Under the pieces are notes generated by a model. It was not told where the DNA came from and searched no databases. It worked only from the letters and a program-made list of their open reading frames with translations. The position numbers and the translations under genes are program-made. A stretch of DNA of 64,000 bases from a virus (lineage: Duplodnaviria; Heunggongvirae; Uroviricota; Caudoviricetes), in IMG/VR virus record IMGVR_UViG_2872147552_000001; one strand, 5' to 3'. This document shows positions 8,619 to 25,163 of this stretch, piece after piece; the first letter of the stretch is position 1; each line of letters begins with the position of its first letter.

Positions 8619-8627
8619 GGCAAATCC

Positions 8628-9527: not shown

Positions 9528-9778
9528 CTACGCTCGATATTGGCATTGATGAAGTCCAGGCGAAGCGATTCCATCGCCCCAACCATGACGTATGGACGCC
9601 CACCGTTATGCCAGCAATCCAGCACACTGCCGTCGTTGTTGATCATCAGCAGTGCCAGGCTCTGGCTTTTGCCTTCTCTGGCGTACTGGAGTGCTTCTTC
9701 CAGCAGGCGGATGACTTCAACGTTGTTGTTGTCAGCCTCTTTCGATGGCTTCAGCTCTACGATCTTCAAATCAGGCAT
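9524..9778 (-). CDS. hypothetical protein
   Basis: 84-aa ORF tightly packed between the ABC ATPase and the GNAT-like gene. Confidence 0.35.
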   Translation of the reverse strand: MPDLKIVELKPSKEADNNNVEVIRLLEEALQYAREGKSQSLALLMINNDGSVLDCWHNGGRPYVMVGAMESLRLDFINANIERR

Positions 9779-11074: not shown

Positions 11075-11754
11075 TACATACGCTCCTTGTAGTAGTCGAC
11101 CAGCCACACCAGAGCCTCACCAGCGTTCTCCATTTCATTACCGGTGTTAATAGCCTGCTCTTTGATGATGTTTTTTATGGTTTCTGCAACACGATCTGAC
11201 GCATCGAAAGTTACTTTGAAGCGCATGGTCTGATGTTCCGCCCCCACACGTTCGGTTTTCTCTCGTTTGTCGGTATCGACAGGCTCATCACTACCACGAG
11301 ACAACGCCTCCAGTGCTTCAAGGTCGATTGCCGCCTCTTTTGCTAAAACCATCGAGATTTCGTCGTCATACGGGGCGATTTCAGACAGTTGATAGTCAAG
11401 TTCTGACTGAATTTCTTCAATGAAGCGTTGCAATGCGATTTGGTCGTCTTCACCGTATCGCTCGTTGTCCACCAGTGACATCTGTTTAGCTACGACATCG
11501 CTAATTTTGCCCACAGAAAGCACCGGAACCGTTGAAATTCCTTGCTCAATAGCAGCACGCCAGCGATGTTCGCCGCCGAGGATTTCAAAAAATCCATCTT
11601 CAAGTTCACGAGCCAAAATTGGCTTAAAAAAGCCCAATTTTTCGATAGAACCTTTCAGTTTTTCAAAATTCTGCGCACCAACCGAATTGGTGTTCCAGGT
11701 ATTCGGGCGAAGGTTGGCAACATCAACCTGCAAAATCGTGATTTTTACATCCAT
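11074..11754 (-). CDS. ParB-like nuclease-domain protein 2
   Basis: ParB/Srx motif ILGGEHRWRAA; track start 11772 is GTG, ATG at 11754 used. Confidence 0.55.
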   Translation of the reverse strand: MDVKITILQVDVANLRPNTWNTNSVGAQNFEKLKGSIEKLGFFKPILARELEDGFFEILGGEHRWRAAIEQGISTVPVLSVGKISDVVAKQMSLVDNERYGEDDQIALQRFIEEIQSELDYQLSEIAPYDDEISMVLAKEAAIDLEALEALSRGSDEPVDTDKREKTERVGAEHQTMRFKVTFDASDRVAETIKNIIKEQAINTGNEMENAGEALVWLVDYYKERM

Positions 11755-11836: not shown

Positions 11837-13396
11837 ATGACTGTTCGGATTGTATCTAACGCAGTAAATGCGCTTATTTCTGGCGCAGATGACAAGGTAA
11901 AGCAACTGGTGCAGCAAATGTTGAGCTACGAAGTCGAGACTGGCGACTGGAAGGGCACAAGCACGATGTTCAACTGGAGTAAAAACTCGTTCCCTGCTGG
12001 CTTTGCCAAGCCTGTAGCGGCGAACTTGAACAAGGCGGGCATCAAATGTGTTCATATCCGCAAAGACAAAGCCCCGGCGCTTGGTAAACCAAATCCTGCG
12101 GTTAACCCATTCCCATACAATCCTGATTATGCGTATCAGGATCAGACTGTGGAAACACTGGTTCGAGAGGGAATGATGATTGCGCAGATCGCTACTGGTG
12201 GCGGGAAATCTAACGTTGCCTGCAAAGCAGCTGCACGTATCGGTCGAATGACATTATTTTTAACAACCCGCTCTGTTCTGATGTTTCAAATGGCCGAAAA
12301 CTTCCAGAGATCCATCGACTACCGCGCCGAAAATGGTGAACCGTGGTTAAAAGACCAAAAGGTTGGAGTCATTGGCTCGGGTGAGTTCCAGGTATCACGA
12401 CATATCAACGTCGCTACAGTTCAAACTCTTGCAAGTTTCCTCGAAGAACCACCACGCGATGCAACACCAGATAAGAAAAGCTACCACCTCAAACGTCGGG
12501 AGTTGGTGAAACGCTTCCTTTCAAGTGTCTCTCTTCTTATTCTGGAAGAGGCGCATGAGTCTTCAGGCTCAAATTTCTATGACATCGCCAGATTATGTGT
12601 GAACGCAGACTATCGTCTGGCGCTTACAGCCACGCCGTTCATGAAGGATTCGACGGAAGCCAACATGCGCCTGATGGCGGTGGCCGGGCGAATTGAAATT
12701 AAAGTCACAGAAAAGTACCTGATTGATCGAGGCATTCTGGCAAAGCCGTACTTCCTTTATCATAAAGTTGCCTACAAGCCAGACGAGGCCAGAATCAAGG
12801 CCGAACTTGCCAACAAACACCTCAATTTTAGAGTTGGTATGAGCACCGCCTACCAAAAGGCTTATCAGTTGGGGATCGTGTATAATTTGGGACGTAACGA
12901 GGCCATAGTGCGCGAGGCATTGCTTTATAAGCAACATTCACTCAACTGCATGACTCTGGTTCGTCTTAAACGCCACGGGCAAATCCTGATGGAGATGATG
13001 AAGGAGTCAGGTCTTAAAGTTGATTTCATCTATGGGGAATCTAACCAGACGACAAGGCAAGCAAAGCTGAATAGTTTAGCGTCTGGTGAAATAGATGTTT
13101 TAATAGGCTCGACTATTCTGGATGTTGGTGTTGATGTGCCAAGCGTTGGTGCGGTCATTCTTGCTGGTGGTGGGAAAGCAGAAGTTGAAATGAGACAGCG
13201 TGTCGGTCGTGGCTTACGAGCCAAAAAAAATCAGGCAAACGTGTGTTTTATCACTGATTTCATTGACATTAGCAACAAATACCTGTTGTCTCACTCTTAT
13301 GAGCGAAAACACATCATCGACACCACACCTGGCTTTGCAGAAGGTGTATTGCCTATTGATGGAGCATTCGATTTTGGAGTTCTGAAACGAGATTAG
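11837..13396 (+). CDS. SF2 helicase (ResIII/DEAH-like)
   Basis: Motif I ATGGGKS, motif II LEEAHE, motif III TATP, motif VI QRVGRGLRA; AAGGAAAGAGG RBS. Confidence 0.75.
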   Translation: MTVRIVSNAVNALISGADDKVKQLVQQMLSYEVETGDWKGTSTMFNWSKNSFPAGFAKPVAANLNKAGIKCVHIRKDKAPALGKPNPAVNPFPYNPDYAYQDQTVETLVREGMMIAQIATGGGKSNVACKAAARIGRMTLFLTTRSVLMFQMAENFQRSIDYRAENGEPWLKDQKVGVIGSGEFQVSRHINVATVQTLASFLEEPPRDATPDKKSYHLKRRELVKRFLSSVSLLILEEAHESSGSNFYDIARLCVNADYRLALTATPFMKDSTEANMRLMAVAGRIEIKVTEKYLIDRGILAKPYFLYHKVAYKPDEARIKAELANKHLNFRVGMSTAYQKAYQLGIVYNLGRNEAIVREALLYKQHSLNCMTLVRLKRHGQILMEMMKESGLKVDFIYGESNQTTRQAKLNSLASGEIDVLIGSTILDVGVDVPSVGAVILAGGGKAEVEMRQRVGRGLRAKKNQANVCFITDFIDISNKYLLSHSYERKHIIDTTPGFAEGVLPIDGAFDFGVLKRD

Positions 13397-13398
13397 TT

Positions 13399-13677
13399 AT
13401 GAGTGAAAAGAAAACAACTTACTGTCAGGTAGCATTGTCTGATAAGGCCAATGACAAACTTGGAAAGTTTCAAGTGAAACTAAAAGAAAAAAATATCAAA
13501 ATGTCTAAGGCTGAAGTCATAAATACCATTCTGGAACAATTGACAATGGCCGACTTTGACAAGGTTATATCTTCTGTCGGGGCTTCCGCTAAGACTCGTG
13601 AGAAAATCATGCGTATCTATGAGAACTCTAATATGACAAAGGAAGATCTCGAAACGCTATTAAGCAGATTAAAATAA
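13399..13677 (+). CDS. small DNA-binding protein, possibly ribbon-helix-helix
   Basis: 92-aa ORF whose N-terminus (KTTYCQVALSDKANDKLGKF) has a beta-strand-then-helix pattern like RHH proteins; coupled to helicase stop. Confidence 0.35.
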   Translation: MSEKKTTYCQVALSDKANDKLGKFQVKLKEKNIKMSKAEVINTILEQLTMADFDKVISSVGASAKTREKIMRIYENSNMTKEDLETLLSRLK

Positions 13678-13703
13678 TCACGCTATCAATTAGGGAGACA
13701 AAG

Positions 13704-14168
13704 ATGAAGTCTCCCATACTGTTCACTTTCTGTTCTAAAACTATCATGAAATACTCGCTTCTCCCTCTACTAACGTTACCAGTGTTGATGCTTACCGCGT
13801 GCCAATCACGCCCAATATCAATCCATGACGCCAAACCAGCACCGCAGGCCAAAGTGTTCAAGTATCAAAGCGCAGCGCCAGCTACGTTGGTGGTAATGAG
13901 AGACACAGGTTTTGTAGGAGCTGGATGTGATGCTTCCATTTTCATCAACGGCGAAACTGTCGCAAAACTGGCTACAGGCGAAAAAGCGACTTTCCATTTA
14001 AATGCCGGAGAATTAATTGTGGGTGCATCTCTTGAAGGTGCAGGTTTATGTGCTCTAAACCCCGCTCGTCAAGAGCGAGAAACGACTCTGAAGAATGGAG
14101 ACACAAAAGCATTCAGGGTGTTCACCAGCAATTCTGGTGACATCGACATTCTGCCAACAACTCTGTGA
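13704..14168 (+). CDS. lipoprotein (lipobox LTAC), hypothetical; superinfection-exclusion candidate
   Basis: Hydrophobic signal segment ending in L-T-A-C; GGGAGA RBS at the 13704 start, alternative start at 13746. Confidence 0.5.
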   Translation: MKSPILFTFCSKTIMKYSLLPLLTLPVLMLTACQSRPISIHDAKPAPQAKVFKYQSAAPATLVVMRDTGFVGAGCDASIFINGETVAKLATGEKATFHLNAGELIVGASLEGAGLCALNPARQERETTLKNGDTKAFRVFTSNSGDIDILPTTL

Positions 14169-14172
14169 TGAC

Positions 14173-14697
14173 ATGACAACCAAAGATATTACCTACGGTA
14201 TCCAAGCTGAACTCTGGCCGCGAGATTACACTAACGTTGAAAAACTACTGATGTTCTGGCGCAGAGAACAAATTCCTGTAAGGGTCACTCTCGAAGATGG
14301 CCAGGCGTTTTGCATGTACGTTTATGGCCTCATGCCATCTCGTAACAAAGTTGACCTTTGCCCAGCCCCTTTTGACAAAGAAAATCGTATAAGGCTCCCA
14401 CTTGAACGCATTAGTACAATTGAATCAGGTGTGGTTGACAGTATCGCTCACGATTTCAAAGGTCGACTAACAGTTCACCCTGATTATGTCGATAATCGGC
14501 CATCACGCCGCGATTTTTTTGCAATTTGCAACCAAGCCTACAAAGCAAACAAATCTATAAGGGTGTACATGGCGGATGGCCGTGAAATTGAGGGGGTGTC
14601 AGCAGGCGCAGATGCTTGTCAGGTTACACTACGTGTCGAGAACGGTAGAAAAATAGTTGTTTTGTTCGATTGGGTTGAACGAATTTTGCCTTTTTGA
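14173..14697 (+). CDS. hypothetical protein with two Rof-like repeats (tentative)
   Basis: Track ORF 14095..14697 trimmed to ATG at 14173 just after the upstream stop; repeats VRVTLEDGQAF and IRVYMADGREIEGV faintly resemble the Rho-inhibitor Rof fold. Confidence 0.35.
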   Translation: MTTKDITYGIQAELWPRDYTNVEKLLMFWRREQIPVRVTLEDGQAFCMYVYGLMPSRNKVDLCPAPFDKENRIRLPLERISTIESGVVDSIAHDFKGRLTVHPDYVDNRPSRRDFFAICNQAYKANKSIRVYMADGREIEGVSAGADACQVTLRVENGRKIVVLFDWVERILPF

Positions 14698-14700
14698 GTT

Positions 14701-15009
14701 ATGAAATCGATATTGTTACCACCATTATTTTTACTTTGCTCAGTTGCGGCAAATGCAATGGACTATAAGCCTGTCATTCAATCGCTGATGAATGATGTGT
14801 GCTCAACGTCTCAGAATGTATCAGTTTGCATGTATCAATTTTCGGCAGCCGTAAAAGCAGGAAAAGCGATAGGTGAGAATGTGGAACTGTGTAAGAAAGT
14901 GGCAAATGAAGAACGGGCAATGTTGGATTGCGAATCTAGCGAGTCATCGGCACAGTTCGTTGATGCGCTATTTGACACCAATCGTAAGGCTGTAGAGTCT
15001 GTTCAATAA
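14701..15009 (+). CDS. secreted or periplasmic small protein
   Basis: N-terminal signal peptide MKSILLPPLFLLCSVAANA followed by a Cys-containing mature domain. Confidence 0.45.
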   Translation: MKSILLPPLFLLCSVAANAMDYKPVIQSLMNDVCSTSQNVSVCMYQFSAAVKAGKAIGENVELCKKVANEERAMLDCESSESSAQFVDALFDTNRKAVESVQ

Positions 15010-15199
15010 ATCTATAAGGTTAATAACCGGCTAAGTCCGGTTATTATTTTTCACATCACTTCTTTATATCTATAAATCAAATAACCTAAATATATATAAG
15101 GTCTAAAGCCGGAATCGATTATTTATTTAGGGAACACCTTCGACGATCTCGCTTTTATTTCTAGGACTTTCATCCCTGCAAAAAAATTTAAAAAAACAC

Positions 15200-15228
15200 T
15201 TGCAATCTTTTTTCGCATATCGATAATT
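15200..15228 (+). promoter_or_regulatory. sigma70-type promoter candidate (TTGCAA - 17 nt - GATAAT)
   Basis: -35 and -10 hexamers with 17-nt spacer inside an AT-rich gap about 65 nt upstream of the 15293 start. Confidence 0.45.
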
Positions 15229-15292
15229 GAACTCGTCGAAAGCGAAGACGCTAACGACAATAAATTTTAAATTTACATAAGGAAAAATTATC

Positions 15293-15943
15293 ATGGCTAA
15301 CATTATCATTTCTAAAAAATCCATCATTGAAGCTGCTTCCATTGTATCCGATGAACTGCGCGAAAAAGCAGATCTGGCAACTCAAACATATAACGAACAT
15401 TATAAAAATGGTACGCACACTAAAGCAGACAAAGCAAATATGCAAGCTGCGACCACTAAACTTGCTTACTTCATCAACAACGTTGTAAACGCTGTAGAAG
15501 ACGAAAAATTATGCTCTGTTTTCTACTATGCGATCAAAGCAAGCAAACAAGCGCCAGAAGTTTTTTTCCGTGATGCAATGACTAACAGTTATTCTCTGGA
15601 AAAACTGGTTTATCTGGTCAAATCAATTAAATCTGGTAAATGCGTTTATTCCGTCGCTGATATGTCAGGATCTCGTGTATTTGCTTTAATCGATATGATT
15701 AACGACGAGATCGACACGTTCACCAATGGCGCTGTTTTCGATTTAATGAATGAAGCTAAAAAAGCGTGCGAAATTAAATTGGACGCTGGCTATACTCAAG
15801 CCAACCAGTTGATCAATCTTTGCGAACGTCTCGGACTTGTTGAAAAAGTCAAAGGAGCTGGGAGCGCGAAAGCTGGTACTCAGCAATATCGCTTCGTTAA
15901 AAATGATTTTTATAACTATCTGGCTGATGCTTTTAAAGCGTAA
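15293..15943 (+). CDS. hypothetical protein
   Basis: 216-aa ORF with AAGGAAAAA RBS after an AT-rich promoter region. Confidence 0.45.
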   Translation: MANIIISKKSIIEAASIVSDELREKADLATQTYNEHYKNGTHTKADKANMQAATTKLAYFINNVVNAVEDEKLCSVFYYAIKASKQAPEVFFRDAMTNSYSLEKLVYLVKSIKSGKCVYSVADMSGSRVFALIDMINDEIDTFTNGAVFDLMNEAKKACEIKLDAGYTQANQLINLCERLGLVEKVKGAGSAKAGTQQYRFVKNDFYNYLADAFKA

Positions 15944-15991
15944 TTAATGGAATCAAGCGCCCACTATGGGCGCTTTAAAGGAGCTTTAAAA

Positions 15992-16195
15992 ATGGTCAGC
16001 TATGACAAGATCCGCGCGGAATATCGCGCAAAGTATCGCGCTTATAAACTGGAATTAATCGATGATTTGATCGCGCAACGCGACCAATTAAATTTTACGT
16101 TTTCTGATTTGCTCAACAGCAAGCGAGATTGCAAGCGCAAACGTGAATACTTACGTTTAAGCGCATTAATCGGAAAACTTCAAAATTCTATTTAA
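15992..16195 (+). CDS. hypothetical small protein
   Basis: Track ORF 15947..16195 trimmed to ATG at 15992 with AAAGGAG RBS; the 15947 start would lie inside a hairpin. Confidence 0.35.
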   Translation: MVSYDKIRAEYRAKYRAYKLELIDDLIAQRDQLNFTFSDLLNSKRDCKRKREYLRLSALIGKLQNSI

Positions 16196-16216
16196 TTTTT
16201 TTTAAGGAGCTTTATC

Positions 16217-16447
16217 ATGTTTGTTCTTATCGCTGGCGTTAACGTGCGCAATGAATATTTTGTTAATCGCATCGCTGGGATCGCTGGTTACGCTGGGCGC
16301 TCAGTCGAGTTTATCGATGAAACAACGCGTAAAATTGATTTATTGAGCGACCAGGAGCGAAAAAAAGCAGACGTGAACGACGCTGATATATTTTTAATGT
16401 TAAAAGCGTTTGTAGAAATGGGATTTAAAATCAGTTTACACAAATAA
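16217..16447 (+). CDS. hypothetical small protein
   Basis: 76-aa ORF with AAGGAG RBS, followed by two hairpin-plus-T-run terminators. Confidence 0.4.
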   Translation: MFVLIAGVNVRNEYFVNRIAGIAGYAGRSVEFIDETTRKIDLLSDQERKKADVNDADIFLMLKAFVEMGFKISLHK

Positions 16448-16448
16448 A

Positions 16449-16478
16449 ATCGAGCGCCCATAGTGGGCGCTTTTTTCG
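16449..16478 (+). terminator. rho-independent terminator
   Basis: GAGCGCCCATAGTGGGCGC hairpin followed by TTTTTTCG. Confidence 0.6.
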
Positions 16479-16496
16479 TTTCCAATACTCCCACCA

Positions 16497-16526
16497 TAGC
16501 GCGCCATCATTGGCGCGTTTTTTATT
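16497..16526 (+). terminator. rho-independent terminator (second of tandem pair)
   Basis: AGCGCGCCATCATTGGCGCG hairpin followed by TTTTTTATT. Confidence 0.55.
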
Positions 16527-16938
16527 GTCTTTAACTCACTCCAACAACATAAAAATAAGCGCCAAAATAACGCCATAGACGCGCTTTTATATCCTTACCA
16601 GTACATACCCATTACTTAGCACATTAACGCGCTTAAAATGCGTTATATTGCGCTATAACGTATGGCTAATCATTGGCTTTTATTCTTGCTATGTGATCCG
16701 CGTTTATTTGTCGGCGCGGATCGGCATTTTGTGTTGTTCTGTATCCGCTCGCGTATTATGTGCGCGTGATTTTTCACATAATCACACCACTTAATCACGT
16801 ATGTGATTACGCTACGAAAGAAATCTGGATGTCTCAGGCGACGAAAGTCATCATAATTTTCCCCGCTCGCCTGTCCGACAACCGCTGGTTGGATTCCACC
16901 AGCTTCCCGATGTTTTTTTCTACATAAAGGCGAATGCA

Positions 16939-17052
16939 GCCGTTTCCCGAAAAAATCCTGGCCGTTTCCCGTCGGCTCATGAATACGTTCCTCGCCGTTT
17001 CTGAAAATTTCCCTGCGGCAGCTGGTGGCTATAGAGAAAGGGCCGTTTCTGG
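16939..17052 (+). repeat. direct-repeat array A (4 copies of GCCGTTTCC-type motif)
   Basis: CCGTTTCCCGAAAA, GCCGTTTCCCGTCGG, GCCGTTTCTGAAAA, GCCGTTTCTGGCC read directly; a Chi octamer GCTGGTGG lies at 17021-17028. Confidence 0.55.
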
Positions 17053-17064
17053 CCCTCTTCTCAG

Positions 17065-17547
17065 TTACACGCCATCAAGGATGTGGATGCGGTTGCTTGC
17101 GTATACATTCAGCATAAAGTTAGCGCAAAACAGTTTCCATGTATCAACGCCAGCGGTATACGTAATGTTTTTGCATTTAATCGCATTGTTGGCGATCCGC
17201 ATCCCCTGCGATACTGCTTCATCGTCGGAAAATTTGAACGACGATTGAGTTTTAATCCAGACAGAAATCTGCGTAGCGAACTCAATCAGCTTGGACTGGC
17301 AGAATCGCCCGGAGCGCACCGGAAAGACGAACGTTCCGAATCCAGAATTTACCACATACGCTTTCTCAAATACCCGCGAGTAACGACGATTGCCAATGAT
17401 GTCGCGTGCAATAATGCATTTTTCTTGTGCTGACAGTTCTACCGTCTCATTGTCGCGCCATGCACCAAGTACTCGTTTTTCAATGTCAGAGAACGTTACA
17501 GCGATATTGCCATGTGCGGGTGCGTTTACAGTAGCGATAAAATTCAT
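17065..17547 (-). CDS. hypothetical early protein
   Basis: 160-aa ORF with AAGGAA RBS, preceded by the conserved early promoter/operator module. Confidence 0.45.
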   Translation of the reverse strand: MNFIATVNAPAHGNIAVTFSDIEKRVLGAWRDNETVELSAQEKCIIARDIIGNRRYSRVFEKAYVVNSGFGTFVFPVRSGRFCQSKLIEFATQISVWIKTQSSFKFSDDEAVSQGMRIANNAIKCKNITYTAGVDTWKLFCANFMLNVYASNRIHILDGV

Positions 17548-17565
17548 GATTAATTCCTTATCGTA

Positions 17566-17601
17566 AATAACAAATTGTTTTCTTGTTGGTGTTAATTATC
17601 G
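17566..17601 (-). promoter_or_regulatory. early promoter/operator module (GATAAT ... AGAAAACAA-N-TTGTTT palindrome)
   Basis: Conserved element about 20-40 nt upstream of the start codon; one of at least 13 copies in the window. Confidence 0.45.
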
Positions 17602-17722
17602 TTGTACGAATAAGGCGTCAAAGTGGAAAGTTGCGGTAGCCGGACGGGAACAGGTGGGTTTGTCGGTTGCCTGGAGGTAAGAGGTTGGTGTTTTTAGCCT
17701 GCGGGAAACAGGATGGTCATTT

Positions 17723-17746
17723 AAGGCCACCAGCATTGGTGGCCTT
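17723..17746. terminator. hairpin AAGGCCACCAGCATTGGTGGCCTT (intergenic stem-loop family)
   Basis: Perfect 9-bp stem; contains the reverse complement of the Chi octamer; no strong T-run. Confidence 0.4.
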
Positions 17747-17751
17747 AATCT

Positions 17752-18039
17752 TTAGTGGAGCAGACCGATGTCGATGGTATCCCCTGAATCATCCACACGG
17801 ATCATCAGCATGGCGAAGGCGTTTAGTGGATAACTGGCGTGCCATTCAGGGAAGCGGTCATCTCGCATGAAGTCGGCAATGTCGTAAACGCATCCCTCAA
17901 AGTGGAAGAATCGCGTGCTTACCTGCTCGTCATATTCCACATGATCCATTTCTTGCTGTTCTGTTTCCGGCAAGTCCAGCCATGATTCAAGGAATACATT
18001 TTGTGCTTTAGGGGTAATGGTGAAATCAGTCATGAGCAT
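17752..18039 (-). CDS. hypothetical early protein
   Basis: Track ORF 17752..18165 trimmed to ATG at 18039, because the upstream part of the track ORF runs through the conserved promoter module. Confidence 0.45.
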   Translation of the reverse strand: MLMTDFTITPKAQNVFLESWLDLPETEQQEMDHVEYDEQVSTRFFHFEGCVYDIADFMRDDRFPEWHASYPLNAFAMLMIRVDDSGDTIDIGLLH

Positions 18040-18052
18040 ATCCTCACTGCGT

Positions 18053-18086
18053 AAACATGTTGTTTTCTTGTTGGTGTAATTATCGC
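18053..18086 (-). promoter_or_regulatory. early promoter/operator module
   Basis: Same GATAAT/AAACAA-N-TTGTTT architecture as at 17566. Confidence 0.45.
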
Positions 18087-18368
18087 AGTGTAGATAAGGC
18101 ATAAAAGAAGTTAATACAGGCTGAATACACAAGAAAGGTTCTGGAAGTTGATAGCCAGGTTTCAAACTAACCTTCGGTTATTAAAAGTCATTTAAGACCA
18201 CCAATGCTGGTGGCCTTAATAATTATCGACCGATTACGCTAAGGATCTTTTCCTCAACTGATTTGTTGTTGCGACTAAACTGCCTTGCGTATCTGATGAC
18301 AGAAGAGGCGTTTTGCTTTCTGACCATCTCGGCTCTTTCCTTCAGGCGTTTCTTGAAATCGCCCATAT

Positions 18369-18743
18369 TTACCACCAGGCGCAGAAGGTCAGTCTGTTAT
18401 TGTGAAAGTCGTGGTTCTTAATCAGATCTTCCACAATCTCTTTCAACTCCCCCACATCATGCCAGTAACCTTCATCGTACTCCTGACTGCCGAAGAAAAA
18501 ACCTTCCCGGGTAGGCAAGTACTCTTCGCAATTACTTTCGTTTATGTGCATCAAATGAGCCTTCAGAAAACAAATGTCATTCATCGTTAATTCTAAAAGC
18601 TCACAATTTTCGACTTCACCTACGTTGCGCTCCATCCACCCAACGAGCGCATTGAACTTACGGAAGTAAGCAACCTGCTTTCTGGATGCCTCGTTATTCA
18701 GATCGTTTTTAGGCTGTGTCTCGATATAGATATCAAGTCCCAT
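18369..18743 (-). CDS. hypothetical early protein
   Basis: Trimmed to ATG at 18743 with AAGGAAA RBS; conserved motif copy at 18797-18817. Confidence 0.45.
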   Translation of the reverse strand: MGLDIYIETQPKNDLNNEASRKQVAYFRKFNALVGWMERNVGEVENCELLELTMNDICFLKAHLMHINESNCEEYLPTREGFFFGSQEYDEGYWHDVGELKEIVEDLIKNHDFHNNRLTFCAWW

Positions 18744-18860
18744 GATGGTTTCCTTATTAAGTTGCTTCAGTGAAATCATTTTCACAAATCAGATAAGGCA
18801 GAAAACAAATTGTTATCGGGCATAAGAAAATGGCGCGGTTTACGCGCCATTTAAAGAGGA

Positions 18861-19256
18861 TTAAGCGAATACGCTTTCAGGGATTAAGGTGTCGGCAGGA
18901 ATGCCAGAGGTAATGCGCAGGCCGTACTGACCAATCCAGGCAGTGTTGGTATTCAGGTTGGAGGCGAATACGGTGTCAACCATATTCATCATTGGTTCAA
19001 ACACCTCTTCATCAACCTGGCGGAAGTAGTTCTCGATTTTCAGCAGCAGCGGGTCAGTTGCATCGAAAATAGACTGGTATTGAATCGCGTACTCGCCGCC
19101 GGAGGCATCACCTTTACGCACGATCGTACTGGCCTGGACTTCGGCACCAGTTTCGGTGTTGTACGTAACAACGGTGATTTTTGCCACATTCTTACCTTCG
19201 GCGGTTTCAGAGGCATAGTAAACATCAACTGTCAGTTTTTCGCGTTTAACGGTCAT
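18861..19256 (-). CDS. hypothetical early protein
   Basis: Trimmed to ATG at 19256 with GGAGAG RBS. Confidence 0.45.
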   Translation of the reverse strand: MTVKREKLTVDVYYASETAEGKNVAKITVVTYNTETGAEVQASTIVRKGDASGGEYAIQYQSIFDATDPLLLKIENYFRQVDEEVFEPMMNMVDTVFASNLNTNTAWIGQYGLRITSGIPADTLIPESVFA

Positions 19257-19320
19257 TTCACTCTCCGTAGTGTATTGGTTATTTTTATATTCTATGATCG
19301 TAAGTATGTACTTACAATAC

Positions 19321-19348
19321 AAAAAAGCCCCGTAAGGATGGCGGGGCT
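19321..19348 (-). terminator. rho-independent terminator
   Basis: Minus-strand hairpin AGCCCCGCCATCCTTACGGGGCT followed by TTTTTT. Confidence 0.55.
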
Positions 19349-19382
19349 GTCGTACTGTCGACTAATTACCACTTGCACATTA

Positions 19383-19694
19383 TCAGGCTATTGCCATCAC
19401 TGATGCTCTCTGAATTTCTTGCTGGGCCACGCGGTTAACTTCCATCAAAGCCAGTTCGAGCTGATGTTCCGGCCACATTCTTTGAAATGCCATCCAGCCT
19501 TTTCCACGCTGGCGACGAACATTCATTACATAACGAGTAAAGGTGTTTTTATCGAAAGACACCGCTGTTTCACGGAACAGACGAATAGAGGTTCCATTGG
19601 CAACGATGTCCAGCAAAGTTAATTGAGCAACCAGCGCAGGCTTCTCTTTTCTCTTCTGGTCTTTGTCCAGACCAAGAACCAATGATTTTTTCAT
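19383..19694 (-). CDS. hypothetical early protein (basic)
   Basis: Trimmed to ATG at 19694; promoter module copy at 19706-19740. Confidence 0.45.
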   Translation of the reverse strand: MKKSLVLGLDKDQKRKEKPALVAQLTLLDIVANGTSIRLFRETAVSFDKNTFTRYVMNVRRQRGKGWMAFQRMWPEHQLELALMEVNRVAQQEIQRASVMAIA

Positions 19695-19848
19695 CACAAC
19701 TCCGTAAACAACTTGTTTTCTCAATGGCGTAAATAATACCAGTAAGAAAACGGCTACAAAGCATAATGATCAGGTGCATGATCGATATGCAGGTTCTTCC
19801 CTGCGGCTACATATTAAGTTAAGCCAGCAATGCTGGCTTTGGTTGGGG

Positions 19849-20178
19849 TTACTCGAATACTTCAAGAAACTCCTGAACGTCCCAATGCTGGACGAGGTGA
19901 AGATAGACCTTAGAAATCACGTCATTTTCGCTATCGCATGTGAAGTAGTACTTCTGGCTGCGGTTGTATGTGTCCACACAAAATTCGCTCATATCCATAA
20001 AGTCAGCATCTTCACCCATGTCGCAAATCATCAAAGCAGGTGCGTCATCACGAGTCATCAGCTCAAGCACCCACCGCGAATTGATCAGAGTGGAAGACCA
20101 ACCTTCTAACTCATAAAACTGATCAAACTCTTTTTGAGTTAATTTCTTGATTTGGTTGATGTCGATATTTGCAAACAT
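19849..20178 (-). CDS. hypothetical early protein (acidic)
   Basis: Trimmed to ATG at 20178 with AAGGA RBS; promoter module copy at 20191-20224. Confidence 0.45.
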   Translation of the reverse strand: MFANIDINQIKKLTQKEFDQFYELEGWSSTLINSRWVLELMTRDDAPALMICDMGEDADFMDMSEFCVDTYNRSQKYYFTCDSENDVISKVYLHLVQHWDVQEFLEVFE

Positions 20179-20540
20179 AAAGCAATCCTTAAACAACTTG
20201 TTTTCTTGATGGTGTTATTATCGCAATAACGCACAGGCGAAAAAGGATTTTATTCCGGTGAATGTGGTTTTGGCAGTGAGTTTTCAGGTTCAGTACCGAG
20301 TACACTTTTTACATTATTCTGATTTAGTGGCCGAAGGTGGCTGGTGGGCAGAATAATCATCTCCCCGAAAACCTACTGAAATCGATTGTGACCCGTTGGC
20401 TGTCTGGCACAATTACGCTGTAGCTGGGCATTCAGAGGGAGTCCAACGGTAAGTTAGTCCGCCTGCACGTGAGCGCCTCTCTTCTTCCCGCACATTACAG
20501 GTGGGTAGCCGCAACTCTCCCTCACGCTATACCGGTACGC

Positions 20541-20672
20541 CGCCGTTCCTGAACCGGCATCGAGCCTTTTCCCGAAATCCACACAGGCAACTCGACCGTT
20601 TCCCTGAAAACCTCCAGCCGTTCCCCGAAGGCAACCCAGCCGTTTCTGTAGCGGGATGCAGCTTTTTCCCTG
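20541..20672 (+). repeat. direct-repeat array B (6 copies of GCCGTTCC/CCGTTTCC-type motif)
   Basis: GCCGTTCCTGAACC, CCTTTTCCCGAAATCC, ACCGTTTCCCTGAAAA, GCCGTTCCCCGAAGG, GCCGTTTCTGTAGCG, GCTTTTTCCCTGTATGG within about 130 bp. Confidence 0.55.
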
Positions 20673-21731
20673 TATGGACCGAAGGCTGACCGTAGGGGTG
20701 TTACGGGGGATAAAATCAGGAGTTGAATAAATACGAAAAAGGAGGCGACACCCCTCCTTCCCTCCCCACTTATACATACCTGGCTTCTTCGCTATACATG
20801 TTGTGTTTTATTCGTGTTTTATCTGTCTCAACCTCTCTATGGACGTTAACACTCACTCCTTCCAGAACGTTCTATACGGCGACTAATTCTGTTGGTGAAT
20901 TGGGTGTGTTGTTCTCTCTGTCGGTGTATGTGGTTTCGTTCGTTTTGCGGTGGTTCTTCTATGGGGTGTTCTCGTCGTTTTGGTGATTGTTCTTCTCCGT
21001 GTATGGAGTAATGGCAGGTGGGCGATTCCTTTCGTTGTTGTGTTTGAGTTGTTTGTCTGGAGTGTGAAAGGCTTTTGTAGTTATTCGTGTATTGGGTAAT
21101 GGCGTTTCCCGTGATTGTTCTGTTTCGTGTCTTTTGGGATTGAGAGAAGCCTTGCGGTTACAGGCTTCGTTGGGGGTTCAGTGATTCTGGTGTTTCTTCG
21201 CTGTTTGGGTAATGGCGTGTCGTGGGTATCGCGCGTATGAATGTTTTCGGATTGCCTGTGAAAGTTAGGTTGGTTGTCCGGTAGCCTGGGGAGAAGAGGT
21301 GGGTCTTTTCGGTAGCCTGCCATAAAGAGGTTGGTTGTTTTTGGAAATGGCATATGTGTTATTTAGTTGTTTTGTTATGCCTGAAAATAAGTTGTTTATA
21401 TGGTTATGTAACGCAACGGGAACGATTTTGAGCGTGTGTTTTTGTTGGTAGTGTGTTGGGTCGTCTGTGGTGAAAATTGGACGCTGTGGCGCTGTCTGCT
21501 GCGTAGAATTACGGGTATAAGCAGTGATGTGTGAAAACGTCAATTTTTTAGACCAAATAGGGTGAAAGCGTTGATGTTTCGTTGATCTGTTATTTAGTTG
21601 TTTTCTTGTTTGTATAAACAACTATAACCTATTGATATTTAAGGATGTGATTGCGGGTATGGAAGGGGAGTAGTGGCGATCAACGGATTCTTATAGAAAA
21701 GAATCAAATTGTGACCGCCATTATCAATGTT

Positions 21732-22466
21732 TTACTTAGTTTTGTTTAGCAGAGAGAGAATTTCATCACTAATTTCACTCGCCTGTTTGATAGCCAATGC
21801 AGTTACCTCTTCTATGGTTGGTGACTGTTGATGCTCATGTTTGGTTTCAGTTATGACAATGTGTTCTTCACCTGAATTTGCGCATAGTGCCGCATTGACT
21901 ATAAGGTTTGAGTAAGAATTTAGCAGAGCACTGTTGATAAACGCTTTCACGGTATTACTGTCTGCACCAAATACATCTTTTCTGACCGCTTCAGCCTCAC
22001 AGCGAACCCCTGCAGCAACATCGTGAAGAACATGTATGGCCTTGGAGCTTGTTTGTTCACAGTACTCAATCATTATTGTCGAATTGTTCTGTTCAACAAA
22101 TGATCTGATGCCTGACGATTCACCCATAGCATCGAAGGCAGCGTGACCCGCACTAGTAGAGATATCTTCGTAGAGTTCTTCATCGCTATCTTTTTCTTCA
22201 GGTGTCGAGGTGTCTTCATCGTCGTAATAGATATTGCCTTTAATCAGTGTTTTGGATACTTGATATAAACAATAAGAGACGAGATTTAAGCATTGGATTT
22301 TAGCTGTATTGTCCTTTGTCGCCTCGCTCTTCAGTTCTTTCGCTTCTTCAGTAAGGCTGTTGATAAGACTTTGTATTTTTTCCAACGCGTTAGGTGCACA
22401 CTCCGCGTTGTCCATAAAGAATTTATAACCAGTTCCAGGGATTTCTAAACTTTTCAACTTTTTCAT
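21732..22466 (-). CDS. hypothetical protein (AT-rich, acidic)
   Basis: 244-aa ORF of lower GC content than its neighbours. Confidence 0.4.
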   Translation of the reverse strand: MKKLKSLEIPGTGYKFFMDNAECAPNALEKIQSLINSLTEEAKELKSEATKDNTAKIQCLNLVSYCLYQVSKTLIKGNIYYDDEDTSTPEEKDSDEELYEDISTSAGHAAFDAMGESSGIRSFVEQNNSTIMIEYCEQTSSKAIHVLHDVAAGVRCEAEAVRKDVFGADSNTVKAFINSALLNSYSNLIVNAALCANSGEEHIVITETKHEHQQSPTIEEVTALAIKQASEISDEILSLLNKTK

Positions 22467-22511
22467 TTCTTTGATAATCCTAAAAACAAACTACCAATGC
22501 TTTAATATCTG

Positions 22512-22811
22512 TTACCAGTTCCAGCACTCAAGCCCTTCAACGACCGGTGCACCACAATCAAAATGTACAGAGTCAAAGCCTACATCAAGTACTTTCTGAA
22601 TGTTAGCAATCGCGCCTTCGGATATACCATATCGACGCAAGTCCTCTTTCCAGACATCATCCTGTAACCCGGCGTGGACAATACAACCGCCGTCAATTTG
22701 CGAAACCCAATCCAGCTCATTGCTTGCGATCATGAATCGGCGAGCATCTTCCTCTGATGTATGAGATGAACTGATCAATGCCACCTGGTAGGCTTGGGTA
22801 ATGTTCAACAT
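22512..22811 (-). CDS. hypothetical protein
   Basis: Track start 22820 is GTG; ATG at 22811 has GGAGTGG RBS; preceded by a complete two-operator promoter module at 22821-22892. Confidence 0.45.
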   Translation of the reverse strand: MLNITQAYQVALISSSHTSEEDARRFMIASNELDWVSQIDGGCIVHAGLQDDVWKEDLRRYGISEGAIANIQKVLDVGFDSVHFDCGAPVVEGLECWNW

Positions 22812-22820
22812 TTCAACCAC

Positions 22821-22892
22821 TCCGAAACAATTTGTTTTCTTATGTGGTTTATTATCTCCATCAACAAAAGGCAGAAAACAAATTGTTTTAGG
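22821..22892 (-). promoter_or_regulatory. complete early promoter module (two AAACAA-N-TTGTTT palindromes flanking GATAAT)
   Basis: Best-preserved copy of the module; the host-like insert begins immediately upstream. Confidence 0.5.
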
Positions 22893-22972
22893 TACTGTGT
22901 AAATCAGAAGGGATTGTGTCTATATGAAAATGCCCGGCGTGTTGCCGGGCATTGCGAAGAGAGGTTGTTTAA

Positions 22973-25006
22973 TTACTTAACCTGGTGGCCAGGTTTAGCA
23001 CCAGCATCCGGGCTTAACAGGAAGATATCTTTCCCGCCGGGGCCAGCAGCCATCACCATGCCTTCAGAGATACCGAAGCGCATTTTACGTGGTGCCAGGT
23101 TAGCCACCATAATGGTGTGACGACCAATCAGTGCCTGTGGATCTGGATAAGCGGAACGGATGCCTGAGAAGACATTACGCTTTTCACCACCGAGATCCAG
23201 CGTCAGGCGAAGCAGTTTGTCAGAACCTTCTACAAACTCTGCGTTTTCAATCAGCGCCACGCGCAGGTCAACTTTGGCGAAGTCGTCAAAGGTGATAGTT
23301 TCCTGAATCGGGTCGTCAGCCAGTGGGCCAGTTACCGGTGCGGCTGTGGCTTTCACTTCTTCTTTGGATGCTTCCACCAGTGCTTCAACCTGCTTCATAT
23401 CGATGCGGTTATACAGTGCCTTGAACGGATTTACTTTATGGCCCAGCAGCGGTTGCTGGATACCATCCCAGGTCAGTTCTGTATTCAGGAATGCTTCTGC
23501 ACGTTCAGTCAGTTTCGGCAGTACCGGCTTCAGGTACGTCATCAGCACGCGGAACAGGTTAATGCCCATAGAGCAAATCGCCTGCAGATCGGCATCGCGA
23601 CCTTCCTGCTTCGCCACCACCCACGGAGCCTGTTCATCGACATAGCGGTTAGCCAGGTCAGCCAATGCCATGATTTCACGGATAGCTTTACCAAATTCGC
23701 GGCTTTCCCATGCTTCGCCAATCACTTCAGCGGCATCAGTAAAGGTTTTGTACAGTTGCGGGTCAGCCAGTTCGCTTGCCAGCACGCCGTCAAAACGCTT
23801 GTTTATAAAGCCTGCATTACGGGAGGCCAGGTTAACCACTTTGTTCACGATATCGGCATTCACGCGCTGAACGAAATCCTCCAGGTTGAGATCGATATCA
23901 TCAATGCGCGAAGAGAGTTTCGCAGTGTAGTAGTAACGCAGGCTGTCGGCGTCAAAATGATTCAGCCAGGTGCTGGCTTTAATAAAGGTGCCGCGAGACT
24001 TGGACATCTTCGCGCCGTTCACCGTCACATAGCCGTGAACAAACAGGTTGGTCGGCTTGCGGAAGTTGCTGCCTTCCAGCATGGCAGGCCAGAACAGGCT
24101 GTGGAAGTAAACAATATCTTTACCGATGAAGTGGTACAGCTCGGCGGTGGAGTCTTTCTTCCAGTATTCATCGAAGCTGGTGGTATCGCCGCGCTTGTCG
24201 CACAGATTCTTGAAGGAACCCATGTAGCCAATCGGCGCGTCCAGCCAGACGTAGAAATATTTGCCCGGCGCGTCCGGAATTTCAAAACCGAAGTAAGGCG
24301 CATCGCGGGAGATATCCCACTGTTGCAGGCCGGATTCAAACCATTCCTGCATTTTGTTCGCCACCTGCTCCTGCAACGCGCCGCTGCGGGTCCATGCCTG
24401 CAACATTTCGCTGAAAGAAGGCAGATCAAAGAAGAAGTGTTCGGAATCACGCATTACCGGGGTAGCGCCAGAAACCACCGATTTCGGCTCGATCAATTCA
24501 GTCGGGCTATATGTTGCGCCGCAGACTTCACAGTTATCGCCGTATTGATCTGGCGCTTTACATTTCGGGCAGGTGCCTTTTACAAAACGATCCGGCAGGA
24601 ACATGCCTTTTTCCGGGTCGTACAACTGAGAGATAGTGCGGTTTTTAATAAAACCGTTCTCTTTCAGGCGAGTATAGATAAGCTCAGACAACTGACGGTT
24701 CTCTTCGCTGTGCGTCGAGTGATAGTTGTCATAGCTGATGTTAAAGCCTGCGAAATCAGTCTGGTGTTCCTGACTCATTTCGCCAATCATCTGCTCCGGT
24801 GTGATACCAAGCTGCTGCGCTTTCAGCATGATCGGCGTACCGTGGGCATCGTCGGCACAGATGAAATTAACCTCGTGGCCGCGCATTCGCTGGTAACGAA
24901 CCCAGACATCAGCCTGGATGTGCTCCAGCATATGGCCGAGGTGGATTGAGCCGTTAGCGTACGGCAGCGCGCACGTCACCAGAATTTTCTTCGCGACTTG
25001 GGTCAT
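22973..25006 (-). CDS. metG: methionyl-tRNA synthetase (chromosomal-type, near-identical to E. coli MetG as recalled)
   Basis: 677-aa product from [26 protein letters not shown] with HIGH and KMSKS motifs and the C-terminal tRNA-binding domain; track ORF extends 43 codons upstream of the true ATG at 25006; own hairpin terminator at 22931-22957. Confidence 0.95.
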
Positions 25007-25163
25007 AGTAGGCATTACTTCTTTGTAGTGAAAAGGGGCTTGATAGTAACAAAATGGCCTTATGTCTGCCATGTGATAACAGCATTTCTCATAAATGATT
25101 AAATGTCGTAGCTGGAGTACACTACAAGGCGACAATTGCGCAAATTAAAATAAAGGAGACGGG

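What the first reader, a model, noticed from the sequence alone, without database searches (positions are those of the whole stretch)
16939..20672. Two arrays of GCCGTTTCC-type direct repeats bracketing the early-gene cluster, with clustered Chi octamers
Seen in sequence: array A (16939-17052, 4 copies) and array B (20541-20672, 6 copies) of CCGTT(T)CC(C)GAA-type repeats flank the 17.0-20.2 kb block of small early genes. Chi octamers GCTGGTGG occur on the plus strand at 17021-17028, 18206-18213 and 20340-20347, and the reverse complement at 17726-17733. That is four in about 3.3 kb of mostly non-coding DNA, where about two per 64 kb would be expected by chance. Established knowledge: Chi attenuates RecBCD degradation of linear DNA; direct-repeat arrays are typical protein-binding sites. 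Inference: the arrays may be partition or replication sites and the Chi cluster may protect entering or replicating DNA.
Basis: partly seen in the sequence, partly recalled or inferred. Interest (0 to 1): 0.5.

Follow-up and report, generated by a model that had tools for sequence, protein, structure and literature searches.

The report
Phased repeat arrays in SSU5-type phage-plasmid
Two short arrays of a 15-base motif, spaced two turns of the DNA helix apart, flank a block of small genes in an SSU5/pHCM2/pMT1-type phage-plasmid. They are conserved from E. coli to Yersinia, so they are very probably docking sites for a DNA-binding protein whose role is unknown, while the Chi "cluster" is no denser than Chi in the rest of the element.

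Summary
The window is an SSU5/pHCM2/pMT1-type phage-plasmid, 98% identical to Escherichia phage Cyrano. Both arrays are real. Array A has three copies of (A)GCCGTTTCCC(T)GAAAA plus a fourth inside a terminator hairpin loop; array B has six copies. All copies lie on the + strand, 22 bp apart (one 31-33 bp step per array), and the motif clusters nowhere else in the 110-kb element. Motif positions are conserved across genera while spacers drift. Copy number changes by whole 22-bp units. Relatives whose neighbouring protein is only 31-33% identical still carry arrays with the same core. The arrays are not the plasmid's RepA iterons, do not track the partition system, and share only a heptamer with lambda cosB. 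The best candidate binder is the adjacent 216-aa protein, which has a predicted C-terminal winged helix and stays linked to array A in every lineage examined. The role is unresolved; I rank an origin-like replication element first, then regulation or insulation, segregation and packaging. The Chi cluster is weak here: 5 octamers of 17 in the window (P about 0.11), mixed orientation, two in copies of one terminator hairpin. It is stronger in some sister lineages. The finding is a new, unannotated cis-element of a known general kind.

The parts
16939..17008 (+). Array A: three motif copies (16939 GCCGTTTCCCGAAAA, 16961 GCCGTTTCCCGTCGG, 16994 GCCGTTTCTGAAAAT), spaced 22 and 33 bp
17006..17028 (+). 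Conserved block AATTTCCCTGCGGCAGCTGGTGG at the right edge of array A; its last 8 bases are the Chi octamer 17021-17028
   Evidence: Chi broken in pMT1, PhiR41_1, SSU5, absent in L133/L147
17031..17062 (-).
   Evidence: different stems, same loop core, in other lineages
20542..20675 (+). Array B: six motif copies at 20542, 20564, 20595, 20617, 20639, 20661, spaced 22/31/22/22/22 bp
20736..20762 (-). Hairpin terminator just upstream (in the minus-strand sense) of array B; it ends the CA-rich minus-strand transcript of 21.7-20.8 kb
15293..15943 (+). p216 (CYRAN_113 homologue): N-terminal helical domain plus C-terminal winged helix; candidate binder of the arrays
16448..16938 (.). Conserved non-coding zone between the + strand terminators (16452-16519) and array A; rich in GCGC-core inverted repeats
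17065..20196 (-). Six small genes of unknown function (17065-17547, 17752-18033, 18369-18743, 18861-19256, 19383-19694, 19849-20178), each flanked by promoter-like upstream sequence and a hairpin; four share one promoter-operator leader. The set varies between lineages
17631..17723 (+). Second repeat family (GGTAGCCTGG-N6-AAGAGGTGGG, 30-bp period), three copies about 690 bp to the right of array A
21276..21341 (+). The same 30-31-bp family, two copies about 730 bp to the right of array B
17721..17748 (.). Terminator hairpin TTAAGGCCACCAGCATTGGTGGCCTTAA holding Chi 17727-17734 (-)
   Evidence: (I1)
18192..18219 (.). The same hairpin module in the other orientation, holding Chi 18206-18213 (+)
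   Evidence: (I1)
16896..16903 (-).
   Evidence: (I4)
20340..20347 (+). Chi octamer between the gene-6 promoter and array B; conserved in the Klebsiella lineage

Best explanation
The two arrays are cis-acting, non-coding docking platforms for a sequence-specific DNA-binding protein encoded by the conserved phage core of the element. The most likely binder is the neighbouring 216-aa protein (p216), which has a helical, probably oligomerising, N-terminal domain and a C-terminal winged helix. Because the ~15-bp sites repeat every 22 bp (two helical turns) or 31-33 bp (three turns), all sites face one side of the DNA. Several protein units can therefore bind side by side and cooperatively, building one nucleoprotein complex at each end of the variable small-gene block. 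The two complexes could pair and loop out the 3.6 kb between them. I rank as the most likely role an origin-type replication element for phage (lytic or secondary) replication, organised like P4 ori/crr or SPP1 oriL/oriR: two clusters of initiator sites kilobases apart. This would be separate from the RepA plasmid origin. What is shown: the repeats, their phasing, their conservation, their uniqueness in the genome, and their linkage to p216. What is inferred: protein binding, p216 as the binder, cooperativity and looping, and the replication role. The Chi octamers are not part of the mechanism. They mostly fall in GCCACC/GGTGGC terminator stems and conserved blocks of an element whose overall Chi density is host-like.
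Confidence: 0.35

Rival explanations
1. Transcriptional control or insulation. A regulator (p216 or another protein) coats the arrays and acts as a roadblock or boundary just downstream of the two minus-strand terminators. Alternatively it acts as a distal operator or enhancer for the cassette promoters, isolating the variable small-gene block from its neighbours.
For: Each array begins 25-55 bp after an intrinsic terminator of leftward transcription. The bracketed block consists of independent promoter-operator-gene-terminator cassettes. Winged-helix proteins of the MarR/ArsR type are typically regulators.
Against: The cassettes already carry their own palindromic operator, AAACAAnTTGTTT, which is unrelated to the array motif. 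Array B lies 270-400 bp from the nearest promoter. Arrays of 3-6 or more same-face sites are unusual for simple operators. The arrays persist while the cassettes between them change.
Confidence: 0.22
2. Segregation or positioning site. The arrays are centromere-like sites of a partition or tethering system. Either p216 acts alone (as pSK1 Par and R388 StbA do) or the arrays are dispersed centromeres, as in N15.
Against: The partition genes differ between pMT1 (type Ia parAB) and pGD31-F25 (222-aa ParA-like), while array A carries the same motif copies in both. The module travels with the phage core rather than with the plasmid genes, even in distant relatives. p216 was not reported among genes expressed in lysogeny. 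No NTPase gene is adjacent.
Confidence: 0.15
3. Packaging recognition (pac- or cosB-like). The small terminase binds the phased repeats to start DNA packaging.
For: Small terminases bind phased repeats, as established for SPP1 pacL/pacR, P1 pac and lambda cosB. Lambda cosB carries the same heptamer, CGTTTCC, three times between cosN and nu1. The element has a TerS-like HTH protein and a T4-type TerL.
Against: The arrays lie 9-12 kb from terS/terL and across a divergent promoter. There are two clusters 3.6 kb apart, not one compact site. The copies are all direct, unlike lambda's R3-R2(inverted)-R1 layout. Neither TerS nor p216 resembles gpNu1. The arrays persist in derivatives without terminase.
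Confidence: 0.1
4. Recombination module boundaries. The conserved arrays serve as homology flanks for swapping the variable cassette block between related phage-plasmids, with nearby Chi sites stimulating RecBCD-dependent exchange or protecting ends.
For: The gene set between the arrays varies between lineages while the flanks are conserved. The A-B interval is Chi-rich in several lineages: Cronobacter 7 of 14 in 3.1 kb (P = 0.001), Klebsiella P = 0.014, pHCM2 P = 0.04. In the E. coli lineage, inward-facing Chi octamers bracket array A.
Against: Homology flanks would not need a phased, motif-specific pattern with diverged spacers. The Chi excess is not significant in this element and is absent in pMT1 and L133. 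Orientations are mixed, and many Chi octamers are by-products of related terminator stems.
Confidence: 0.08
5. Binding sites for a conserved host protein rather than a phage-plasmid protein.
For: The motif is nearly invariant across host genera, as expected if the binder is a conserved enterobacterial factor.
Against: I know of no enterobacterial regulator with this site (my own knowledge, not tested). The motif persists, with drift, in relatives from hosts of 33% and 55% GC together with the p216 homologue.
Confidence: 0.07

Closest known systems
Satellite phage P4 ori / crr (alpha-protein iterons)
   Same: Two clusters of short direct repeats kilobases apart that bind one protein and are thought to cooperate by looping. 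They lie in a phage-plasmid-type element and are separate from any host-type origin. (This is established knowledge, not tested here.)
   Different: The P4 repeat is TGTTCACC and its binder is the primase-helicase alpha. Here the motif is GCCGTTTCC, the candidate binder is a 216-aa winged-helix protein with no enzymatic domain, and replication activity is unproven.
Iteron origins of P1/F/IncFIB RepA plasmids (incC/incA) and the ori iterons of lambdoid O genes
   Same: Phased direct repeats of about 20 bp period occur in two clusters. Unrelated viral contigs even carry 22-bp iterons with the same CCGTTTCC 8-mer, inside a lambda-O-like gene (L012) and upstream of a plasmid rep gene (L104).
   Different: This plasmid's own RepA iterons are a different sequence next to repA. 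The arrays here flank no rep gene, lie inside no gene, and lack DnaA boxes and an AT-rich element. No protein homology links the window to those contigs near the arrays.
Lambda cosB R1-R3 sites for gpNu1
   Same: They share the heptamer core CGTTTCC, carry several copies, and bind a winged-helix protein.
   Different: The lambda sites are about 50 bp apart with R2 inverted, and they adjoin cosN and nu1. Here the copies are direct, 22 bp apart, and 9-12 kb from the terminase genes. There is no similarity to gpNu1.
Centromere arrays of type II/III and single-protein partition systems (R1 parC, TubR-tubC, pSK1 Par, R388 StbA-stbS)
   Same: Clusters of same-face direct repeats are bound cooperatively by a small HTH or winged-helix protein, sometimes in two blocks. 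TubR appears among the structural neighbours of p216.
   Different: No ParM-, TubZ- or ParA-type NTPase gene is adjacent. The arrays do not co-vary with the partition genes. The two blocks are 3.6 kb apart rather than flanking one promoter.
Chi (GCTGGTGG) recombination hotspots
   Same: These are exact octamers, and the element as a whole has an E. coli-like density: 17 per 64 kb against 1.3 expected from shuffles.
   Different: There is no significant local excess here and no common orientation, and several octamers are embedded in terminator stems.

Membership tests
Iteron-like protein-binding array (generic) | Several same-orientation copies of one motif at spacings that are whole numbers of helical turns | tested here: met
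   Spacings are 22/33 bp (A) and 22/31/22/22/22 bp (B), all on the + strand.
Iteron-like protein-binding array (generic) | Motif conserved more than spacers in diverged relatives; copy number changes by whole units | tested here: met
   Motif-independent loci.
Iteron-like protein-binding array (generic) | Demonstrated binding of a protein | not testable with these tools
   Needs EMSA, footprinting or ChIP with p216 (CYRAN_113) and other candidates.
RepA (P1/IncFIB-type) origin and inc iterons | Same sequence as the iterons flanking the plasmid's repA | tested here: not met
   The RepA iterons read (A/T)ATCCACTRTAGWGAG at record positions 110145-110645 and 1055-1540 of pGD31-F25. A PWM of the array motif finds no cluster there.
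RepA (P1/IncFIB-type) origin and inc iterons | DnaA box and AT-rich unwinding element beside the iterons | tested here: not met
   The only DnaA-like box (16770) is not conserved. GC content is 0.39-0.52 around array A and 0.58-0.60 at array B.
ParABS-type centromere | Site co-varies with, or lies beside, the partition genes | tested here: not met
   pMT1 has type Ia parAB and pGD31-F25 a 222-aa ParA-like gene, yet array A carries the same motif copies in both. The par genes lie about 40 kb away.
Lambda-type cosB | R-element core CGTTTCC | tested here: met
   Lambda positions 53(+), 114(-) and 155(+). The array copies contain CGTTTCC or CGTTYC.
Lambda-type cosB | gpNu1-like small terminase and position next to the terminase genes and cosN | tested here: not met
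   BLASTP E = 9.5 and hhalign probability 0.1%. The arrays lie 9-12 kb from terS/terL.
pac/cos site in general | Virion DNA ends or packaging series start at the site | not testable with these tools
   No virion read data could be analysed. The literature search found no end mapping for SSU5-type phages.
Chi hotspot cluster | Local density above the element's background | tested here: not met
   5 of 17 octamers in 3.45 kb gives P = 0.11; for the whole plasmid P = 0.14. Sister lineages range from P = 0.001 to 1.
Chi hotspot cluster | Common orientation relative to a DNA end or to the replication direction | tested here: not met
   Orientations are -,+,-,+,+ here and are mixed in all lineages.
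CRISPR array | Identical repeats separated by unique spacers of about 30 bp, with variable spacer content | tested here: not met
   The period is 22 bp, the repeats are degenerate, and the 'spacers' of about 7 bp are orthologous between lineages.
Structured RNA family | Match to a curated covariance model | tested here: not met
   No Rfam match near the gathering score in 15500-23000.

The most novel reading that the evidence does not exclude
p216 and its two phased arrays form a previously undescribed origin or DNA-organising module of the whole SSU5/pHCM2/pMT1/pKPHS1 supercommunity. In this reading a non-enzymatic winged-helix protein assembles on two iteron clusters 3-4 kb apart, next to a 900-bp G-skewed tract, and starts or licenses phage-mode replication independently of the RepA plasmid origin. 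That would be the switch point between plasmid and phage replication.
Probability: 0.25. Interest if true: 0.6.

Novelty: new member of a known kind. Interest (0 to 1): 0.4.

Why it matters
SSU5-type phage-plasmids are among the commonest large non-conjugative plasmids of clinical E. coli, Klebsiella, Salmonella and Enterobacter, and pMT1 of Yersinia pestis belongs to the same group. Homologous DNA was found in 770-838 PLSDB records. How these elements switch from plasmid to phage replication, and which cis sites they need, is essentially uncharted. The region is annotated only as hypothetical proteins, and I found no paper that mentions the arrays. The arrays, the linked winged-helix protein p216 and the adjacent skewed tract are a compact target for deletion and binding tests. 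If the arrays prove to be an origin or segregation site, they could explain copy-number bursts of resistance-carrying phage-plasmids and provide a typing or curing target. If they are only regulatory, the result is of local interest.

Tried and rejected
- **RepA iterons:** rejected, because the sequence differs.
- **Centromere of the ParA system:** rejected as unlikely. The par modules differ between lineages, the array does not, and no repeats lie beside parA.
- **Lambda cosB homology:** only the heptamer is shared.
- **Coding sequence:** Cyrano annotates CYRAN_104 over array B. Rejected, because a 22-nt unit deletion in PhiR41_1 breaks any reading frame and RefSeq calls no gene there.
- **Structured RNA:** no Rfam match.
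- **Segmental duplication of an array-plus-30-mer module:** only the 30-mers align between the two regions, with score 55 against at most 31 for shuffles.
- **Contig-end positions in IMG/VR as a clue to virion ends:** uninformative.
- **GC-skew switch at the arrays:** none.
- **More distant p216 loci in the species-genome collection:** only close relatives were returned.
- **Literature:** searches for SSU5 with terminase, cohesive ends, PhageTerm or iteron, and for the motif itself, found nothing on these arrays. The iterons of 'IncpKPHS1' plasmids are described as lying 48-218 bp downstream of repA, so they are probably the RepA iterons. Three papers could not be opened, and the AFDB fold library was unavailable.


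Full report
**What the window is.**
The 5 kb around the finding is 98% identical to Escherichia phage Cyrano (the pLF82 phage-plasmid) and 98-99% identical to about 170 E. coli and E. albertii plasmids of around 110 kb. More distant matches occur in Klebsiella, Enterobacter, Salmonella (pHCM2, phage SSU5), Citrobacter, Cronobacter and Yersinia pestis pMT1. The window is therefore an SSU5-type phage-plasmid. In the near-identical plasmid pGD31-F25, repA sits about 38 kb away around the circle. The replication genes (DnaB-like helicase, primase, Pol III alpha) and a small ParA-like gene lie 40 kb or more away. In window coordinates, the terminase genes lie at 6.3-8.2 kb, two ParB_N-domain genes at 10.4-11.8 kb, and a UvsW-type helicase at 11.8-13.4 kb.

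**The arrays are real.**
Exact GCCGTTTC occurs five times in 64 kb, always on the + strand and always inside the two arrays. A degenerate pattern gives 9 matches, 8 of them in the arrays. Array A copies start at 16939, 16961 and 16994, with a further copy at 17042. Array B copies start at 20542, 20564, 20595, 20617, 20639 and 20661. Start-to-start spacings are 22 and 33 bp (then 48) in A, and 22, 31, 22, 22, 22 bp in B. These are two or three helical turns, so all sites face one side of the duplex. Same-strand clusters of 4 and 5 hits within 140 bp were never reached in 300 Markov-1 simulated sequences (maximum 3). A position-weight scan of the whole 110-kb plasmid finds no other cluster. The unit consensus is (C)AGCC(G/T)TTTCCC(T)GAAAA.

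**The fourth copy of array A is a special case.**
It lies in the loop of the hairpin GGGCC-GTTTCT-GGCCC, followed on the minus strand by a T-rich tail. This hairpin is the terminator of the 160-aa gene that ends at 17065. Other lineages have different stems (GGGGC/GCCCC, GCCG/CGGC, GCGAG/CTCGC) around a similar loop.

**Conservation of the arrays.**
- *Loci found by BLAST of the flanks, so independent of the motif.* pMT1, a Klebsiella plasmid, pHCM2 and an Enterobacter plasmid carry array A at the same place with spacings of 22 and 34 bp. All except pMT1, which is rearranged by an IS1541 insertion, also carry array B.
- *Pattern of conservation.* The motif columns are invariant while the spacers differ. 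A profile over 39 distinct array-A sequences shows at least 90% identity in the third copy and the adjoining TTCCCTGCGGnAGCTGGTG block, against 40-70% in spacers. The first two copies were used to collect those sequences, so they do not count as evidence.
- *Copy-number change.* Array B differs by exact unit deletions: 22 bp in PhiR41_1 and 44 bp in one IMG/VR contig. This excludes a coding function and keeps the phase.
- *A working phage.* Phage SSU5, which is functional, has both arrays.

**Transcriptional setting.**
Both arrays sit in transcriptionally shielded pockets. Array A lies between two + strand terminators (16452-16519) and the minus-strand terminator at 17031-17062. Array B starts about 55 bp beyond the minus-strand terminator at 20762-20736. 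Rfam finds nothing in the region.

**What lies between and around the arrays.**
- *The bracketed block.* The 17.0-20.2 kb block holds six small minus-strand genes with no Pfam family and only function-unknown PHROGs. It is about 63% coding, not mostly non-coding.
- *Cassette structure.* Hairpin terminators separate most of the genes. Four genes share one leader: a promoter-like region followed by the palindrome AAACAAnTTGTTT just before the ribosome-binding site. The block therefore looks like a row of independent cassettes.
- *Variation and expression.* The gene set differs between lineages while the flanks stay the same. Nothing shows that these are early genes.
- *A second repeat family.* GGTAGCCTGG-N6-AAGAGGTGGG, with a 30-31-bp period, occurs about 700 bp to the right of each array and is also conserved across genera.
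- *A skewed tract.* To the right of array B lies a 900-bp non-coding tract with extreme strand asymmetry (G 0.30, T 0.39, C 0.13; GC skew +0.45).

**Which protein might bind the arrays.**
- *Distribution of the family.* p216 has no Pfam family and is confined to this group of elements.
- *Remote homologues keep the architecture.* A profile search of 1.8 billion representative proteins found a few homologues at 31-33% identity. Their contigs keep the order: ParB_N genes, helicase, p216, non-coding DNA, array, small minus-strand genes. The two contigs that extend far enough (L143, L147) also keep the second array; L143 further shows the GT-rich tract and the 30-mers.
- *The arrays in those relatives keep the core.* L143 (55% GC) has seven CCGTTTCC(C)G copies plus a second array. 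L147 has CCTTTTCCCG, AGCCGTTTTC and GGCTTTTCCCTGCGG. L144 (33% GC) has GGCGTTTT(T)GAAAT twice and GGGAAAACGTTCCC twice.
- *Rearranged lineage.* In L131, p216 is inverted and array A then lies about 420 bp upstream of it.
- *Recognition helix.* The predicted helix (residues 168-179) contains three of the 17 residues invariant in the whole family (T168, Q169, Q172), and YTQANQLI is the most conserved peptide.
- *Weight of this evidence.* This is circumstantial but consistent support for p216 as the binder. There is no direct evidence.

**What the arrays are not.**
- *RepA iterons.* The plasmid's RepA iterons read (A/T)ATCCACTRTAGWGAG, at 21-bp spacing upstream and in further copies downstream of repA, with a DnaA box and GATC-rich DNA. 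The array motif is unrelated. The paper on 'IncpKPHS1' plasmids places its iterons 48-218 bp downstream of repA, which probably means these RepA iterons.
- *Centromere of the ParA system.* The partition genes differ between lineages: type Ia parAB in pMT1 and a 222-aa ParA-like protein plus a 117-aa partner in pGD31-F25. Array A carries the same motif copies in both, which argues against it being that system's centromere. No repeats lie beside the ParA-like gene either.
- *Lambda cosB.* Lambda cosB holds the heptamer CGTTTCC three times between cosN and nu1, which is the core of the R elements known from the literature. However, lambda's sites are about 50 bp apart with the middle one inverted, and they adjoin the terminase genes. 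Neither the TerS-like protein of this element nor p216 resembles gpNu1.
- *Classical origin features.* No conserved DnaA box or AT-rich element adjoins the arrays. Cumulative GC skew falls monotonically, with its extremes at repA and no switch at the arrays.

**An analogy from other phages.**
A scan of IMG/VR for two CCGTTTCC copies 22 bp apart recovered the SSU5-type contigs. It also recovered unrelated contigs in which 22-bp iterons with the same 8-mer lie inside a lambda-O-like gene (L012) or upstream of a plasmid rep gene with DnaA boxes (L104). No protein near those arrays is homologous to anything near the arrays here. This shows what such arrays commonly do, but it is not evidence of membership.

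**Chi.**
- *Counts and significance.* The window holds 17 Chi octamers against 1.3 expected from shuffles, and the whole plasmid holds 26. That density is like the E. coli chromosome. Given 17 sites in 64 kb, some 3.5-kb stretch holds five or more with P = 0.11; for the whole plasmid P = 0.14.
- *Context of each octamer.* Two of the five are the same terminator hairpin (GGCCACCAGCATTGGTGGCC) in opposite orientations. The one at 17021 ends a conserved block of array A but is broken in pMT1, PhiR41_1 and SSU5 and absent in more distant relatives. Orientations are mixed.
- *Sister lineages.* The same interval is sometimes clearly Chi-rich: Cronobacter 7 of 14 in 3.1 kb (P = 0.001), Klebsiella P = 0.014, pHCM2 P = 0.04. 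It is sometimes not: Enterobacter, Kluyvera, pMT1 and L133. Many of these octamers come from related terminators with GCCACC/GGTGGC stems and AGCAY loops.
- *Conclusion on Chi.* I regard the Chi content mainly as a by-product of these modules and of the element's host-like oligonucleotide usage. A modest selected excess in some lineages is not excluded.

**Interpretation.**
- *What I regard as established.* I am confident (about 0.8) that the arrays are functional protein-binding platforms. I am moderately confident (about 0.4) that p216 is the binder.
- *Leading role: origin-like (about 0.25-0.3 on its own).* The module belongs to the conserved phage core, not to the variable rep and par modules. 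It has two clusters of initiator-type repeats kilobases apart, like P4 ori/crr or SPP1 oriL/oriR. It adjoins a UvsW-type helicase gene and a strongly G-skewed tract. No other phage origin is apparent.
- *Other roles.* Regulation or insulation is plausible because each array sits right after a terminator. A segregation or tethering role is possible but fits the par-gene comparison poorly. A packaging role is the least likely, given the distance from the terminase genes.
- *Relevant transcription data.* The LF82 study lists Cyrano genes transcribed in lysogeny. CYRAN_113 (p216) is not among them, whereas CYRAN_109 (inside the block) and CYRAN_102 are (PMC9928086). That fits a lytic-phase function but is weak evidence.

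**Novelty.**
I found no annotation of the arrays in Cyrano, PhiR41_1, SSU5 or the RefSeq plasmids, and no paper that mentions them. The arrays belong to a well-known general kind, phased direct-repeat binding sites. They are an undescribed member of that kind in a clinically widespread group of elements, with an unusual layout of two arrays bracketing a variable cassette block. The overall interest is moderate.

Noticed in passing
window 20800-21700: A non-coding tract of about 900 bp has extreme strand asymmetry (+ strand G 0.30, T 0.39, C 0.13, A 0.18; GC skew about +0.45). It is conserved at 66-73% across genera. The minus-strand transcript would be CA-rich and would end at the hairpin 20762-20736. 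The tract holds two degenerate copies of the cassette leader CAAGAAAACAACTAAATAAC. It could be a long non-coding RNA, a rut-like region or an R-loop-prone region.
   Followed up: partly
window 17631-17723 and 21276-21341: A second conserved repeat family, GGTAGCCTGG-N6-AAGAGGTGGG with a 30-31-bp period, has one cluster about 700 bp to the right of each GCCGTTTCC array. It is present in pMT1, Klebsiella, pHCM2 and Enterobacter plasmids and in the distant relative L143.
   Followed up: partly
window 17569-17623, 18053-18107, 19707-19761, 20192-20246 (minus-strand genes): Four of the six small genes share one upstream module: promoter-like hexamers followed by the palindrome AAACAAnTTGTTT just before the ribosome-binding site. 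This suggests a common dimeric repressor. Hairpin terminators separate most of the genes.
   Followed up: partly
window 14095-14697 (+): This gene encodes a homologue of FljA, the repressor of phase-1 flagellin (Pfam Flag1_repress, E = 2.5e-84), with a weak Hfq-like C-terminus. It is conserved next to p216 even in distant relatives.
   Followed up: no
window 22973-25135 (-) and the adjacent + strand gene: The phage-plasmid carries a full-length methionyl-tRNA synthetase (metG) and an ApbC/Mrp iron-sulfur carrier gene. These are host-type housekeeping genes.
   Followed up: no
[not shown]
   Followed up: partly
window 16448-16938: A 500-bp conserved non-coding zone between convergent transcription units is packed with GCGC-core inverted repeats (AACGCGCC/GGCGCGTT types) and several terminator-like hairpins. 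pMT1, pHCM2 and Enterobacter plasmids additionally have TCTGGCGA twice, 11 bp apart.
   Followed up: partly
window 8352-11754 (-): Two paralogous ParB_N-domain proteins, an ABC-type ATPase and two unknown genes sit between terS and the helicase. This block is conserved in all relatives, including the most distant. Its function (DNA modification, nuclease or partition-like) was not examined.
   Followed up: no
L012 4071-5165; L104 about 5480-5813 (minus orientation): Unrelated viral contigs carry 22-bp iterons of the form ATTCGGCnnTTGnGCCGTTTCC inside a lambda-O-like gene, and CCGTTTCCTCACAA iterons with DnaA boxes upstream of a plasmid-type rep gene. They share the 8-mer of the arrays studied here.
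   Followed up: partly
L130 (Cronobacter pCsaCS931a) 12385-15455; L004; L005: In some sister lineages the interval between the arrays is clearly Chi-rich: 7 of 14 octamers in 3.1 kb (P = 0.001). Many of them lie in terminators with GCCACC/GGTGGC stems.
   Followed up: yes
L146 (contig end 94 bp after the p216 homologue): A 43-kb metagenomic contig of a distant relative ends right where array A would begin. This may be an assembly break at the repeats.
   Followed up: no
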